A stretch of DNA of 59,094 bases from Candidatus Evtepia excrementipullorum (GTDB lineage: Bacteria > Bacillota > Clostridia > Oscillospirales > Oscillospiraceae). Shown here in pieces: positions 33,245 to 37,963 of this stretch. The notes beneath the pieces were generated by a model. The model did not search any database. It was not told the DNA's origin and was given only the letters and a program-made list of their open reading frames with translations. Position 1 is the first letter of the stretch. Each line of letters starts with the position of its first letter. The translations under genes and the position numbers were made by a program. The stretch spans positions 1 to 59,094 of the forward strand of contig DWYQ01000133.1 in NCBI GenBank assembly GCA_019118615.1, read 5' to 3'.

Positions 33245-34405
33245 ATGATCAAAGATTTTGGTTTTATCATCCCTCAGAACTGCCAGTTCGGCATGGGCGC
33301 TCTGAAGAAGCTGCCTGACTTCCTGAAGGCCGCTGGCTCTGACAATGTCATGCTGATCTCTGACCGTGGCCTGGAAGCCATCGGCGTTGTGGACAAGGTT
33401 CGCGAGATCATCAAGGCTGCTGACCTGAAGTACAGCGAGTATCTGGACGTGCTGCCCAACCCCACCACCACCATCGTGGACGAGTGCGCTGCCCAGTACA
33501 AGGCCAACGGCTGCACCGCTCTGATCGCTCTGGGCGGCGGCTCCCCCATGGACGTGGCCAAGGCTGTCGGCGTTGTCGCTAAGTTCGGCGGCACCATCGG
33601 CGACTATGAAGGCGTGGGCAAGGTTCCCGGCCCCATCGACACCCTGATCGCCGTGCCCACCACCGCTGGTACCGGCTCCGAGGTTACCGTGGCTGCCGTT
33701 ATCACCGACGAAGCTCGTAACTACAAGCTGTCCGTCCTGGGCCCCGAAATCTCCCCCACCTATGCCGTTCTGGATCCCGAGCTGATCATGACCGCTCCCG
33801 CCTCCGTGGCTGCTGCCTGCGGCGTTGACGCTCTGATCCACGCTATGGAGTCCTACATCAACACCGATGCCAACCCCTTCGCCATGGCTATGGGCGAGAA
33901 GGCTATGGAGCTCATCGGCGGCAACATCCGTAAGTTCGTGGCTCGCCGCAACGATGCCGATGCCGCTTGCGCTATGATGCTGGGTTCCACCTTCGCCGGC
34001 ATTGCTTTCGCCAACAACCGTCTGGGCGACATCCACGCTATGTCTCACCCCGTGTCCGCCTTCTTCCACGTGGCTCACGGTGTGGCCAACGCTGTGCTGA
34101 TGCCCACCATCTTCGAGTTCAACGCTCTGGCTGCTGACGAGCGCTATGCCAACATCTATCAGTACATCACCGGCAAGGAAGCCGGCCCCGACTTCGTGCC
34201 CGAGATGCTGGTTGAGGCTCTGCGCCAGCTGAACAAGGATCTGGGCATCCCCGCTTGCCTGGCCGACGTGGGCGTCACCGAGGACAAGATTCCTCAGATG
34301 GCCATCGACGCTATGAAGAGCGGCAACGTCACCGTCAACCCCAGACTGACCACCGTGAAGGACGTAGAGGCCCTGTATCACAAGGCTATGTACGCCGACA
34401 AGTAA
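33245..34405 (+). CDS. Iron-containing alcohol dehydrogenase
   Basis: GGGSPMD, PTTAGTGSE, DALIHAME, HAMSH, HGVANA; promoter TTGCCA-17-TATACT at 33137-33165. Confidence 0.95.
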   Translation: MIKDFGFIIPQNCQFGMGALKKLPDFLKAAGSDNVMLISDRGLEAIGVVDKVREIIKAADLKYSEYLDVLPNPTTTIVDECAAQYKANGCTALIALGGGSPMDVAKAVGVVAKFGGTIGDYEGVGKVPGPIDTLIAVPTTAGTGSEVTVAAVITDEARNYKLSVLGPEISPTYAVLDPELIMTAPASVAAACGVDALIHAMESYINTDANPFAMAMGEKAMELIGGNIRKFVARRNDADAACAMMLGSTFAGIAFANNRLGDIHAMSHPVSAFFHVAHGVANAVLMPTIFEFNALAADERYANIYQYITGKEAGPDFVPEMLVEALRQLNKDLGIPACLADVGVTEDKIPQMAIDAMKSGNVTVNPRLTTVKDVEALYHKAMYADK

Positions 34406-34436
34406 TCCTTCTGAGGGATTGGGATACGCAAACCAT

Positions 34437-34469
34437 AAAAGAGACCGGCTTCGGCCGGTCTCTTTTTTT
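34437..34469 (+). terminator. Intrinsic terminator
   Basis: gagaccggc-TTCG-gccggtctc followed by T7. Confidence 0.9.
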
Positions 34470-34601
34470 CCGCGCACATCCCGCCTTGGTGCGGCTTTTT
34501 GCTGCCGCTGGGTTTGCAGGCAGGGGAAAAGATGGTATACTATATATAAACGTCGATCCATTGGGGGAGGGGGTTCCCTTCCCTGCCTGAGGAGGTATTC
34601 C

Positions 34602-35894
34602 ATGAAGCAAACCACCCAACAATCGTTGACCAATCTCCTTCGGGCCAACAGCATGACCCCAGATACCTTAGACGGGCCCACTTTGACCCAACTCTTTCTC
34701 TCCCAAATGCGTATCTCCCTTTACGGGGGGGAGAGTTCCATCCCCATGCTTCCCACCTTTTCTAAGCCCTTCGGTGCCCTGGCCGACGGTGTGCCCGTTG
34801 CGGTGGCCGAGGTGGATGACCAGGAAGTCCGGGTAAGCCTGGTGACCTTCCGCGGCGGCCAGGCTCAGTGCACCAGCCAGGACAGCTTCCCTGTCCCCGG
34901 CCGGGACTATCCCGCCCCCCTGGCCGACCTGATCTACGCCGTGGCGGAGCTGATCCAGCCCCTGCTGGACCAGGCCCATGCCTTGGCCCTGTGCCTGCCC
35001 TTCCCCGTGGACTTTGACGGGAAGGGAGACGGCATCATCCGCCGCTTCCCCGGCACCATGACGGTGACGGACTTCTCCCAGCAGCCCGTGCTGGCCGCTT
35101 TGCAGGCTGAGCTACAGGACCGGGGATGTCCCCCCCTTCCCATGACGTTGGTGAGCGAGCCCGACGCCGTCCTGCTGGCCGCTGGGGTCCAGCAGCCGGG
35201 GTGCAGCCGGTACGTGGGCCTTACCTGGGGCAGCAGCGTCGATGTTGGCTTCGCCGCCCCGGGCAGCATCGTCCTGCGGTGGCGCGGCATCCCGGGAGAC
35301 CTGATGCTGTTTGACAGCGGACTTTCCCAGGCCCAGTGCGTCCCCTTCGGCCAGGTGGATTTCTCCAAGGACCGGGACAGCTATGCCCCTGGCAAAGATC
35401 TCTATTGGAAGATGGTCTCCACCGACTACCTGGGGGAGGTCTACCGGCTGGTGATGATCAAGGCCGCAGAGGCCAAACTCCTCTCCTTCGGGTGCAGCCG
35501 GGATGTGCTCTCCCTGCGGTGGCTGGGCTTGGATACCCTGGCCGAGTTCCTCACCGACCCAGAAAAAGGAGGCACCCTAGCCCACTTCTGCCGGGAGCCA
35601 GAGGACCGTGAAGTCGGCCTGGCCGTGGGGCAGGCCGTCCTGGACCGGGCCGCCAAACTTCTGTGCGTGGGCCTGGCCTCGGTCCTCCAGTTCGTAGGGG
35701 CCGGACGGGATCCCAAGGCGCCGGCCTGCGTAGGCCTGCACGGCGCCGCCTTTTCCTTCCCCCCGGTGAAGGCCGCATGGGAACACCAGGTACAGACCTA
35801 CCTGCGGGACACCCTGGGCCTTTCCGTCACGCTATGCTATGGCGAGAATATGCTCCCCACCGGTGCCGCCGCCGAGGCCCTCTATTCTCGCTGA
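34602..35894 (+). CDS. Hexokinase-fold protein with degenerate active site
   Basis: SSIPMLPTF, PVPG, KMVS..YLGEVYRL, RAAKL and C-terminal GAAA follow the hexokinase scaffold, but catalytic motifs are substituted; GAGGAGG RBS and TG-extended TATACT at 34533-34541. Confidence 0.8.
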   Translation: MKQTTQQSLTNLLRANSMTPDTLDGPTLTQLFLSQMRISLYGGESSIPMLPTFSKPFGALADGVPVAVAEVDDQEVRVSLVTFRGGQAQCTSQDSFPVPGRDYPAPLADLIYAVAELIQPLLDQAHALALCLPFPVDFDGKGDGIIRRFPGTMTVTDFSQQPVLAALQAELQDRGCPPLPMTLVSEPDAVLLAAGVQQPGCSRYVGLTWGSSVDVGFAAPGSIVLRWRGIPGDLMLFDSGLSQAQCVPFGQVDFSKDRDSYAPGKDLYWKMVSTDYLGEVYRLVMIKAAEAKLLSFGCSRDVLSLRWLGLDTLAEFLTDPEKGGTLAHFCREPEDREVGLAVGQAVLDRAAKLLCVGLASVLQFVGAGRDPKAPACVGLHGAAFSFPPVKAAWEHQVQTYLRDTLGLSVTLCYGENMLPTGAAAEALYSR

Positions 35895-35933: not shown

Positions 35934-36560
35934 ATGAAAATCATTGGTATCAACGGCAGCCCCCGGGCCAAGGGCAACACCCGCCTGGCACTGGACACCA
36001 TGGGAGAGGTCTTTGCCCAGGAAGGGGTGGAATTTGACATCCTCCACATTGGACACAAGCTCTCCCCCTGCTCCGGCTGCTTCCGCTGCGCCAAAACCCA
36101 CACCTGCACCCTCCCGGACGACGGCCTGAACGCCATGTATGAACAGCTCATCCAGGCAGACGGAATCGTCCTGGCCTCCCCGGTGTATTTCGCCTCGGTG
36201 ACCAGCGGGATGCGCTGCTTCCTGGACCGCATCGGCTGCATCGACATGAACAACGGCCGGAAGCTGCGGATGAAGGTGGGCGTCCCGGTGGCCGTGGCCC
36301 GCCGGGCAGGGGTCGTAAACGCCGTGGACGAGCTTTTCCACTACCTCAACTACGCCCAGATGCTCATCCCCGGTTCCCTCTACTGGCCCTTGGCCTTTGG
36401 GCAGGCCCCTGGGGAAGTGGCCCAGGATGCGGAGGGCATCCAGACTCTCCAAGTGTTAGCCCAGGAAATGGTCTATGTGATGAAGGTTCTGGACGCCGGC
36501 AAAGCGCAGGTCCCCCTGCCTCCCCTGCCCAGAAAAGTCTACACCAACTTTGTGCGATAA
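35934..36560 (+). CDS. Flavodoxin-fold iron-sulfur flavoprotein / NADPH-dependent FMN reductase family
   Basis: GSPRAKGNT, CxxCxxCx5C, ADGIVLASPVY, ARRAG. Confidence 0.92.
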   Translation: MKIIGINGSPRAKGNTRLALDTMGEVFAQEGVEFDILHIGHKLSPCSGCFRCAKTHTCTLPDDGLNAMYEQLIQADGIVLASPVYFASVTSGMRCFLDRIGCIDMNNGRKLRMKVGVPVAVARRAGVVNAVDELFHYLNYAQMLIPGSLYWPLAFGQAPGEVAQDAEGIQTLQVLAQEMVYVMKVLDAGKAQVPLPPLPRKVYTNFVR

Positions 36561-36574
36561 GGGAGGGTGCCACC

Positions 36575-37852
36575 ATGCGCAAGAAATATCTTTTTGCTGC
36601 CATTATTCTCGTCGCCCTCTGCGTGGTTCTCATCCTTCTCGGTCTGCGGCAAAGCGGTGCGCTCACCACAGGCAGCACCACAGAGGGGGGAAGTGTTTCT
36701 ACACAGACCGAGGTCCAAGCCCCCATCACCGCCACCTTGTCGGTGTGCGGGGACATTATGAGCCATTCCCCCCAGACCAACGACGCCTATGACGCCGCCA
36801 CAGACACCTACAACTACCGCCCCTGCTTCCAATATGTGAAGCCCTGGATCGAAAATGCCGACTATGCCGTGGCCAACTTTGAGACCACCCTCAACGGCCC
36901 ACCCTACTCCGGCTATCCCCAGTTCTCCGCCCCGGACGCCTTGGCTGCAGACATCAAGGACACCGGCTTTGACCTGGTGACCACTGCCAACAACCACTCC
37001 ATGGACAAGGGGTACGATGGCCTGGTTCGTACCCTGGACACCATGGATGCCGCCGGCCTGGCCCACGTAGGCAGCTACCGTACCCAGGAAGAGTGGAACA
37101 CCAACCACGGCGTGGTGGTGGCCGATGTGGGTGGCATCTCGGTGGCTTTCCTGGGGTACACTTATGGCACCAACGGCATTGCCATTCCCGAGGACCGTGA
37201 CTTTTGCCTGAACCGCTTCAACACCGACTATACCGGAAACTGTGAAACCCTGGATCAGGAGGGGCTCTCCCAGGCGCTGGCCTACGCGGAAGGGCTGAAC
37301 ACCGACCTCATCGCCGTGATGATCCACTGGGGCATTGAATACCAAACCCAGCAAAACGCCTACCAGGAGGAAGTGGCCGATTTCCTCATCGCCCATGGGG
37401 CTGACCTGATCCTGGGCAGCCACTCCCATGTGCCCCAGCCCATGGAGACCCGCACGGTCACCCTGGAGGACGGGTCCACCCGGTCTGCCTTTGTGGCTTA
37501 CTCCCTGGGGAACTTCGTCTCCAACCAGAGTCCCGCCACGGTGCAGGTGAATTACACCGACACCACCGCCATCCTCAACCTGGATCTCACCAAGAACTTT
37601 GAGACGGGAGAGACCACGGTGACCAACGTCAGCTACGTCCCCCTGCTGGTTCTGAACCGAGGCACTGGCGTGGCAGACCAGTATGTCATCCTAGACGTCA
37701 ACGACGCCATGGCCGACTACAACGCCGGGGACACCTCCCTGGTGACTGCCGACGTCTATTCCAAACTGGAGTACGCCTTGGAAGGCTGCCACACCATTCT
37801 AGGGGAACAGTACGACACCGCCGGGACTCCCCCCACCCAAGAGGCCGCCTAA
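36575..37852 (+). CDS. CapA family (metallophosphatase-fold) membrane-anchored protein
   Basis: GDIMSH, NFET, ANNHSMD, HWGIEY, GSHSHVPQP, YSLGNF. Confidence 0.92.
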   Translation: MRKKYLFAAIILVALCVVLILLGLRQSGALTTGSTTEGGSVSTQTEVQAPITATLSVCGDIMSHSPQTNDAYDAATDTYNYRPCFQYVKPWIENADYAVANFETTLNGPPYSGYPQFSAPDALAADIKDTGFDLVTTANNHSMDKGYDGLVRTLDTMDAAGLAHVGSYRTQEEWNTNHGVVVADVGGISVAFLGYTYGTNGIAIPEDRDFCLNRFNTDYTGNCETLDQEGLSQALAYAEGLNTDLIAVMIHWGIEYQTQQNAYQEEVADFLIAHGADLILGSHSHVPQPMETRTVTLEDGSTRSAFVAYSLGNFVSNQSPATVQVNYTDTTAILNLDLTKNFETGETTVTNVSYVPLLVLNRGTGVADQYVILDVNDAMADYNAGDTSLVTADVYSKLEYALEGCHTILGEQYDTAGTPPTQEAA

Positions 37853-37886: not shown

Positions 37887-37922
37887 AAAAGAAGTCCGTT
37901 GCAAAAGCAACGGACTTCTTTT
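37887..37922. terminator. Intrinsic terminator
   Basis: aaaagaagtccgttgc/gcaacggacttctttt. Confidence 0.8.
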
Positions 37923-37963
37923 ATAATAGAGGGCATCCCCTTGGAAGAACGGAGGACCCATCC

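What the first reader, a model, noticed from the sequence alone, without database searches (positions are those of the whole stretch)
34602..35894. Intact hexokinase-fold gene with every catalytic and ligand motif replaced: candidate bacterial pseudo-hexokinase
Seen: a full-length 430-aa ORF with its own extended -10, a GAGGAGG RBS and no stops or frameshifts, heading a run with an Fe-S flavoprotein and a CapA gene. Known: hexokinases use D-x-GGT-N (phosphate 1), FS(F/Y)P and TK (sugar), NDT (catalytic base), GTGxN (phosphate 2), N-x-E, EK and DGS/EGS. At the aligned positions this protein has EVDDQE (about 34809), LPFP and RRFPGT, SEP (about 35154), WGSSVD (about 35226), LFDSG, WKM (about 35406) and HGA (about 35739). 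The scaffold between them (SSIPMLPT, KMVS..YLGE..RL, terminal GAAA) is retained. Inference: loss focused on the active site in a preserved fold suggests a non-catalytic regulator, a scaffold, a partner of an active hexokinase, or a binder of another ligand, rather than random decay. This is the strongest novelty candidate here. The alignment was done by eye from recalled motifs.
Basis: partly seen in the sequence, partly recalled or inferred. Interest (0 to 1): 0.7.

Follow-up and report, generated by a model that had tools for sequence, protein, structure and literature searches.

The report
Dead hexokinase kept as new dimer
This gene encodes a hexokinase-shaped protein that has lost the residues for binding sugar and ATP, yet almost every sampled genome of the gut genus Evtepia keeps it as its only hexokinase-like gene, and it is predicted to pair with itself through a newly conserved surface, so it likely has a non-enzymatic binding or regulatory job.

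Summary
Confirmed. 34602-35894(+) is an intact 430-aa hexokinase-fold gene (Pfam Hexokinase_1 and _2; model pLDDT 94, Z 41 to glucokinase). DxGGT, NDT and GTG are absent in 102 of 102 full-length relatives, which form one clade apart from canonical bacterial hexokinases. It is single-copy in 38 of 40 genomes of the genus (Evtepia, by named relatives), with dN/dS about 0.10. No active hexokinase sits beside it and no ROK kinase was found (0 of 23), so the heterodimer idea fails.

Constraint has moved: old active-site positions went from near-invariant to average rate, while 40 other positions became conserved. A homodimer is predicted (0.78; best control 0.00; mark reached by 20 of 30 solved pairs and 1 of 23 single chains), on a surface that is slow here (p=0.0005) and fast in active hexokinases.

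Best reading: a non-catalytic homodimeric binding or regulatory protein; partner unknown. Non-catalytic hexokinases are known in plants and fungi; no bacterial case turned up in my searches, nor this family in earlier scan notes.

The parts
34602..35894 (+). Pseudo-hexokinase gene, 430 aa (P0001)
34513..34541 (+). Promoter-like site: TTTGCA, 17 nt, extended -10 TGgTATACT (consensus match only)
34589..34595 (+). Ribosome-binding site GAGGAGG, 6 nt before ATG
34437..34470 (+). Hairpin with T-run ending the upstream Fe-ADH gene; likely insulates the pseudo-hexokinase promoter
   Evidence: z -6.3; RNA contigs of 4 runs from 2 studies end at 34402-34433 (weak hint)
34650..34739 (+). Residues 17-46: first half of the predicted dimer interface, with newly conserved T27, Q35, R37, I38, Y41, G43
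34809..34823 (+). Residues 70-74 EVDDQ in place of phosphate-1 DxGGT
34887..34967 (+). Residues 96-122: newly conserved small-domain patch (F96, Y103, P104, D109, E116, L117, L122)
35040..35057 (+). Residues 147-152 RRFPGT; the sugar-binding Lys (position 151) is replaced in 50 of 50
35154..35162 (+). Residues 185-187 SEP in place of NDT (catalytic base)
35226..35243 (+). Residues 209-214 WGSSVD in place of LGTGxN; W209 newly invariant
35334..35402 (+). Residues 245-267: second half of the predicted dimer interface (R258, L267 newly conserved; D259 adjacent)
35445..35639 (+). Residues 282-346: newly conserved large-domain patch outside the predicted dimer interface (R282, M285, E290, F296, C298, R300, L303, S304, C330); candidate partner- or ligand-binding surface
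35934..36560 (+). FMN_red-family flavoprotein; follows the gene in 19 of 28 loci of the nearer relatives
36575..37852 (+). CapA (PGA_cap) protein; follows the gene in 28 of 28 loci of the nearer relatives but 0 of 8 deeper ones

Best explanation
The gene encodes a hexokinase-fold protein that lacks the ATP-, sugar- and catalysis-binding residues and is under purifying selection; it is predicted to form a two-fold homodimer and likely works as a non-catalytic binding scaffold or regulator for a still unknown partner protein. Shown: fold, loss of motifs across one clade, single copy with no active paralogue, purifying selection, and a shift of constraint away from the active site. Predicted: the dimer forms back to back through large-domain residues 17-46 and 245-267, and each subunit sits in a closed-like shape. 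Inferred: the lineage stopped needing glucose phosphorylation, the ancestral hexokinase was kept for a binding function, and the 32 newly conserved positions outside the dimer contact (small-domain 96-122 and 150-174; large-domain 282-346) hold the closed shape and form the docking surface, presented twice per dimer. The most likely target is a cytoplasmic metabolic enzyme or regulator; that last step is a guess by analogy.
For: Fold. Motif loss: 0 of 102 keep DxGGT, NDT or GTG; phosphate-1 Asp, sugar Lys and sugar Glu at position 240 kept in 0 of 50, catalytic Asp in 2 of 50, against 155 of 155 canonical for the catalytic Asp. One clade: 50 of 205 sequences, support 1.0; 20 vs 30 rows, SH-aLRT 100, quick tree. 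Single match in 38 of 40 genus genomes, 23 of 23 high-quality. ML dN/dS 0.097 vs 0.074 and 0.098 for two neighbours on the same 23 taxa; 12 of 16 listed strain differences are synonymous. Site rates: 16 active-site positions median 0.09 in canonical vs 1.09 here; 38 interface positions 1.40 vs 0.48 (p=0.0005 against other sites). Dimer: 0.78, best of 3 controls 0.00; mark reached by 20 of 30 solved pairs and 1 of 23 single chains; runs agree in at least 98% of contacts, pLDDT 93. 8 of 40 newly conserved positions lie in the interface (3.5 expected, p=0.017), and interface positions that are polar and variable in canonical enzymes are hydrophobic here. No ROK in 23 of 23 genus genomes; PTS EIIC in 2 of 23; no Glk-type glucokinase or glycogen phosphorylase in the own genome, 95% complete.
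Against: No partner was identified, and no neighbour is conserved across the whole clade. The dimer is a model: it used the family alignment, so conservation and interface are not fully independent. Plasmodium vivax hexokinase uses the like helix (Tyr44-Arg66) at one of its two-folds (PMC7201273, passages), so memory may contribute, and no canonical bacterial hexokinase was run as a dimer control. In the nearer relatives 21 replaced active-site codons still give dN/dS 0.07, and D72, L132, G240 and T274 evolve slowly (0.47-0.57), which fits a reused cleft as well. Pairwise counting gives a higher dN/dS (median 0.33, range 0.09-0.58, 322 of 406 pairs), and the protein changes 1.1 to 6.8 times faster than eight neighbours. 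The deepest branch keeps an Asp at or beside the catalytic position. The own genome has a PTS with a glycoside hydrolase, plus HPr, PFK and PGI matches, so it is not free of sugar metabolism.
Confidence: 0.6

Rival explanations
1. A metabolite sensor: the cleft or a new pocket binds a small molecule other than glucose or ATP, and binding switches the dimer's shape or its hold on a partner, as the pseudokinase CoaX does with pantothenate.
For: Replaced cleft codons are still constrained in the nearer relatives (dN/dS 0.07). D72-D73 stand in 34 of 50; R203, W209 and P220 are newly invariant. C298 and C330 are both present in 95 of 102 and lost together in 3. Precedent: PMC11626117 (passages).
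Against: Across the whole clade the old cleft positions evolve at average or faster rate (median 1.09 vs 0.79). CoaX keeps substrate and nucleotide binding, whereas here the ligand residues are gone. The model leans to the closed form without a ligand (one model each).
Confidence: 0.22
2. A new enzyme: the fold now catalyses another, ATP-independent reaction with a rebuilt active site.
For: Invariant charged residues new to the clade (R203, R258, D259, R282, E290, R300). In the nearer relatives it heads a run with a flavoprotein and a CapA metallophosphoesterase-fold gene.
Against: No invariant acid or nucleophile replaces the lost ones in the cleft (position 70: E27, L8, V5, H4; position 186: Q14, E12, T7 of 50). 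R258 lies in the predicted dimer contact. Neighbours differ in deeper members.
Confidence: 0.1
3. Still a sugar kinase, with substituted motifs (Glu for Asp at positions 70 and 186).
For: This copy has E70, E186 and S211 at the two Asp and one Thr positions, and it is the genus's only hexokinase-family gene found.
Against: Those residues are not conserved (E at 186 in 12 of 50). GG is replaced by acidic DD, the sugar Lys and Glu residues are gone, and the nucleotide-side Gly at 274 is kept in 0 of 50.
Confidence: 0.04
4. A relic in slow decay, or a regulatory subunit of an active hexokinase.
For: Faster protein change than most neighbours and pairwise dN/dS up to 0.58.
Against: Open frame with no stops in 38 of 38 matches, ML dN/dS 0.097, 40 newly conserved positions. 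No second hexokinase in any of those genomes.
Confidence: 0.04

Closest known systems
Canonical single-domain (eukaryote-type) hexokinases of Oscillospiraceae and other bacteria; solved relatives human glucokinase (1v4s, 3f9m) and Schistosoma hexokinase (1bdg)
   Same: Same two-domain fold over all 430 residues (Z 41.1, rmsd 3.1 over 421 residues to 3f9m); 32 scaffold positions conserved in both groups; 26-32% identity to family members.
   Different: 21 positions conserved in canonical enzymes are lost, including nearly all ATP, sugar and catalytic residues; 40 others are newly conserved; a predicted dimer surface that is variable in the enzymes.
Non-catalytic hexokinase-like proteins of eukaryotes: Arabidopsis HKL1-3, Aspergillus nidulans HxkC/HxkD
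   Same: Hexokinase fold without catalytic activity, with regulatory roles (PMC2755033 and PMC3821154, passages). AtHKL3 is described as possibly binding neither glucose nor ATP.
   Different: Those are eukaryotic and, for Arabidopsis, extra members of a family with active enzymes; HKL1 and HKL2 keep the glucose site. This one is bacterial, of independent origin from a bacterial hexokinase, and the only family member found in its genomes.
Mycobacterium tuberculosis CoaX (type III pantothenate-kinase-fold pseudokinase)
   Same: Bacterial pseudokinase of the same superfamily; oligomeric; regulates a metabolic enzyme through protein contacts (PMC11626117, passages).
   Different: Different family. 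CoaX differs by a few residues and still binds pantothenate and ATP analogue, and an active CoaA does the catalysis; here the whole ligand site is eroded and no active counterpart was found.
Plasmodium vivax hexokinase tetramer (6vyf, 6vyg)
   Same: Oligomerises through the large domain; one two-fold uses the N-terminal large-domain helix (PMC7201273, passages).
   Different: Active enzyme with a conserved glucose site; D2 tetramer whose other contacts include a parasite-specific insertion; 15% identity.

Membership tests
Hexokinase family (Pfam PF00349 + PF03727) | Both Pfam domains above cut-off | tested here: met
   52.1 vs 24 bits and 25.5 vs 24.3 bits
Hexokinase family (Pfam PF00349 + PF03727) | Two-domain hexokinase fold | tested here: met
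   AF2 pLDDT 94.3; TM 0.84; Z 41.1, rmsd 3.1, 421 aligned
Catalytic hexokinase / glucokinase | Phosphate-1 DxGGT | tested here: not met
   0 of 102; Asp kept in 0 of 50
Catalytic hexokinase / glucokinase | Catalytic Asp in NDT | tested here: not met
   Glu in this copy; Asp in 2 of 50 vs 155 of 155 canonical
Catalytic hexokinase / glucokinase | Glucose-binding Lys, Asn, Gly and two Glu (glucose-site set named in PMC7201273; mapping to this protein is by my alignment) | tested here: not met
   Positions 151, 185, 212, 240, 269 kept in 0, 5, 12, 0 and 2 of 50
Catalytic hexokinase / glucokinase | Phosphate-2 GTG | tested here: not met
   0 of 102; Thr kept in 10 of 50, Ser in 23
Catalytic hexokinase / glucokinase | Measured ATP-dependent hexose phosphorylation | not testable with these tools
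   needs an assay
Eukaryotic HKL / HxkC-D non-catalytic hexokinases | Loss of conserved sugar- and ATP-binding residues | tested here: met
Eukaryotic HKL / HxkC-D non-catalytic hexokinases | Coexists with an active hexokinase paralogue | tested here: not met
   one match per genome in 38 of 38; own genome
Eukaryotic HKL / HxkC-D non-catalytic hexokinases | Common descent with the eukaryotic proteins | not tested
   no tree with eukaryotic sequences was built; the nearest scored relatives are bacterial
ROK-type repressor (Mlc/NagC-like) | ROK domain with an N-terminal DNA-binding helix-turn-helix | tested here: not met
   Pfam gives only the two hexokinase domains; residues 1-430 all align to hexokinase
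CoaX-like pseudokinase sensor | Binds a metabolite without turnover and acts on a partner protein | not testable with these tools
   sequence evidence is mixed; needs binding and pull-down assays

The most novel reading that the evidence does not exclude
A bacterial hexokinase that was converted, in the ancestor of the GABA-eating genus Evtepia, into an obligate homodimer held in the closed (glucose-bound-like) shape, which signals or scaffolds without sugar or ATP, controls a core non-sugar metabolic process, and is required for growth.
Probability: 0.3. Interest if true: 0.8.

Novelty: new variant of a known kind. Interest (0 to 1): 0.62.

Why it matters
Hexokinases moonlight in eukaryotes, but the non-catalytic ones I read about sit in families with active enzymes. 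Here a bacterial lineage kept the fold as its only copy after dropping the chemistry, and the constraint visibly moved to a new surface. That makes it a clean natural experiment on what a hexokinase fold does without catalysis, and it implies an unknown binding function in gut bacteria, testable in the cultured strain Evtepia gabavorous KLE1738 (71% identical orthologue). It also warns that pathway reconstructions will credit Evtepia with a hexokinase: one source names three members 'hexokinase'.

Tried and rejected
Heterodimer with an active hexokinase: no paralogue.

CapA or the flavoprotein as dedicated partner: adjacent only in the nearer relatives (28 and 19 of 28 loci), in 0 of 8 deeper loci.

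Zn-ribbon/membrane/Ig-like gene as partner: divergently adjacent in 7 of 8 deeper loci, but its profile matches 280 of 401 family genomes, some through the Ig-like domains only, and in the own genome it lies on another contig; not specific.

RNase Y neighbour: near in 2 of 8 deeper loci only; not pursued.

Fused forms: none at E<=1e-60 among 7996 long candidates (weak evidence).

NCBIfam gave no family for the protein; the Atlas returned its own 57-member 'hypothetical protein' cluster and hexokinases; cluster look-up of 10 deep members gave no names.

Expression level and strand could not be read: only assembled contigs were available; 2 of 4 RNA runs laid have contigs on the gene, the other two none.

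The first codon-model run printed no dN/dS (read from the logs). The careful tree did not finish; the quick tree is quoted.

The primary paper on KLE1738 was not held, so its sugar-use phenotype is not cited from source; 'Evtepia' with 'asaccharolytic' gave 0 papers.

Full report
OBSERVATION. The window holds an open frame at 34602-35894(+) of 430 residues, with GAGGAGG six bases before the ATG, a promoter-like site at 34513-34541 (3 sites found vs 1.8 in shuffles, so not proof) and a strong hairpin just upstream (z -6.3). Pfam gives Hexokinase_1 and Hexokinase_2 above cut-off. The AlphaFold2 model (pLDDT 94.3) matches glucokinase over its whole length (TM 0.84; Z 41.1, rmsd 3.1, 421 residues).

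A FAMILY, NOT ONE ODD COPY. A protein search returned 118 relatives among 7995 scored candidates, 35-99% identical. A profile search of 1.84 billion representatives listed the best 150, with the full-length close group at 308 bits and above and the rest at 230 and below. In a 205-sequence alignment, 146 had all three canonical motifs and 50 formed one branch, support 1.0, stem 0.53; a second, quick tree of 20 vs 30 rows gave SH-aLRT 100. None of 102 full-length clade members of 400-460 residues keeps DxGGT, NDT or GTG. Against 155 canonical sequences, 21 conserved positions are lost, 32 are shared and 40 are newly conserved (weighted frequency of 0.85 or more). The losses include the phosphate-1 Asp (0 of 50), the sugar Lys (0), the catalytic Asp (2), both sugar Glu (0 and 2) and a nucleotide-side Gly (0). 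The glucose-site residue set is as named in PMC7201273 (passages); the roles of the phosphate-loop residues are recalled. The two sequences with Asp belong to the deepest branch, where the local alignment is uncertain.

DISTRIBUTION. Named records with the gene include Evtepia gabavorous KLE1738 (71%) and Ca. Evtepia faecavium (86%), so I call the window's genus Evtepia; several other records carry looser names. It is found in 38 of 40 genus genomes and 23 of 23 high-quality ones, one match each, no stops inside; the two misses are 88% and 69% complete. Motif loss was read directly for the loci; for the remaining genomes it rests on low Pfam scores (72 bits or less, against more than 100 for most canonical ones). 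Among 401 family genomes, only the 9 of this genus and one genome of another, single-genome genus score in the clade's range; the next best match is canonical. Among 401 order genomes only the 3 of this genus pass. These are samples.

SELECTION. ML dN/dS is 0.097 over 23 taxa, against 0.074 (CapA) and 0.098 (a neighbouring TIGR02453-like gene); on 6 taxa 0.110 against 0.058-0.096 for five neighbours. Simple pairwise counting gives a median of 0.33 over 322 of 406 pairs, with neighbours at 0.10-0.29, and the protein changes 1.1 to 6.8 times faster than eight neighbours: kept, but not among the slowest. Of 16 strain differences listed inside the gene, 12 are synonymous (four further rows of that table were not shown). 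Contigs from 2 of 4 RNA runs laid (one study) cover parts of the gene; contigs cannot show strand or level and DNA can be present.

WHERE THE CONSTRAINT WENT. Sixteen active-site positions have a median relative rate of 0.09 in 50 canonical enzymes (chosen for being conserved there) and 1.09 in the clade, against 0.79 for other sites. A two-copy prediction gave 0.78 against a best control of 0.00; the mark was reached by 20 of 30 solved pairs and 1 of 23 single chains; runs agree in at least 98% of contacts, pLDDT 93. The interface is residues 17-46, 225 and 245-267. These 38 positions are slow in the clade (0.48 vs 0.84, p=0.0005) and fast in canonical enzymes (1.40 vs 0.88, p=0.056). Eight of the 40 new positions lie there (p=0.017), with polar-to-hydrophobic changes such as I38, Y41 and F249. 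Caveats: the prediction used the family alignment; P. vivax hexokinase uses the like helix at one two-fold; no canonical bacterial enzyme was run as a dimer control. The other 32 new positions cluster in 96-122, 150-174, 203-234 and 282-346; I had no coordinates to show which are on the surface.

SHAPE. For solved pairs of liganded and unliganded forms, the model prefers the liganded one more than a control model of a canonical bacterial hexokinase does: rice HXK6 Z 39.0 vs 34.6 (control 39.6 vs 38.1); K. lactis Hxk1 37.6 vs 33.9 (control 37.2 vs 37.7; that 3o08 is the open form is recalled); K. lactis Glk1 38.6 vs 36.7 (control 38.8 vs 38.8). One model each: a hint only.

METABOLIC SETTING. 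No ROK family gene in 23 of 23 genus genomes nor in the other carrier genome (which also found none in 2 of 4 genomes with a canonical enzyme). PTS EIIC in 2 of 23, one being the own genome, beside a glycoside hydrolase. No Glk-type glucokinase or glycogen phosphorylase in the own genome; HPr, PFK and PGI matches are present. Reviews describe E. gabavorous as dependent on GABA (PMC9504309, PMC11091661, PMC7643014; passages); the primary paper was not held. This fits loss of the need for glucose phosphorylation, but the link is inferred.

NEIGHBOURS. CapA follows in 28 of 28 loci of the nearer relatives, the flavoprotein in 19, an iron alcohol dehydrogenase precedes in 23, within a long conserved block. 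Eight deeper loci have other contexts. No neighbour tracks the gene, so context names no partner.

MECHANISM. Most likely (0.6) a non-catalytic homodimer that binds a partner protein through the remaining new surfaces. Next, a sensor of a new ligand (0.22): replaced cleft codons are still constrained in the nearer relatives (dN/dS 0.07 on 21 codons), and C298 and C330 co-occur in 95 of 102. A new enzyme (0.10), a working kinase (0.04), and decay or a heterodimer (0.04) are less likely.

COMPARISON AND NOVELTY. It belongs to the hexokinase fold family, fails every sequence test for a catalytic hexokinase, and probably works like the non-catalytic HKL and HxkC/D proteins (PMC2755033, PMC3821154; passages) or the bacterial pseudokinase CoaX (PMC11626117; passages) without being shown a member of either. 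Searches for a prior description found none: 'Evtepia' + 'hexokinase' 3 papers, listing only; 'hexokinase' + 'pseudoenzyme' + 'bacteria' 9 papers, listing, one review read in passages (PMC8256278), listings. The library lacks most subscription papers and no supplements were read. Earlier scan notes hold no look-alike; they list other conserved dead enzymes in Oscillospiraceae, unchecked by me. Verdict: real, a new variant of a known kind, interest 0.62.

Noticed in passing
window 33251-34405 (+): Iron-containing alcohol dehydrogenase; very slowly evolving (about 7 times slower than the pseudo-hexokinase) and covered by one contig in all 4 RNA runs laid. No NCBIfam cut-off passed; best scores ErcA and lactaldehyde reductase, 4-hydroxybutyrate dehydrogenase lower. 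A role in GABA fermentation is a guess.
   Followed up: partly
L100 (G000:C128:2521-6360): PTS transporter beside a glycoside hydrolase and an RpiR-like regulator (labels from the ORF sequences, by recall); PTS EIIC occurs in only 2 of 23 genus genomes, so it may be recently acquired.
   Followed up: partly
L101:8045-9007, L112:2827-4986 and relatives: Family of membrane proteins with an N-terminal CxxC...CPxC zinc-ribbon-like motif, an acidic linker of very variable length, a GGKRL motif in the deeper members, one membrane helix and two Ig-like domains; Pfam names only the Ig-like parts; widespread in the family.
   Followed up: partly
L064:7217-8452 and P0146: Otherwise canonical hexokinases on long branches with a changed phosphate-2 motif (GSG; ATG), possibly separate cases of erosion.
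   Followed up: no
L065:7344-8573 (G050) and P0129: Deepest branch of the clade, in a different genus; keeps an Asp at or beside the catalytic position but has lost the other motifs; lies upstream of the RNase Y gene.
   Followed up: partly
L101:5567-5989, L063:8664-9107, and L101:5071-5373: Two small conserved ORFs without a Pfam match downstream of the gene in deeper members, next to an SH3-NlpC/P60 gene.
   Followed up: no
window 37887-37927: 16-pair inverted repeat (terminator-like) overlapping a promoter-like TTGCAA-17-TATAAT site in front of a Crp-family regulator gene; could be an operator or a terminator for the CapA run.
   Followed up: no
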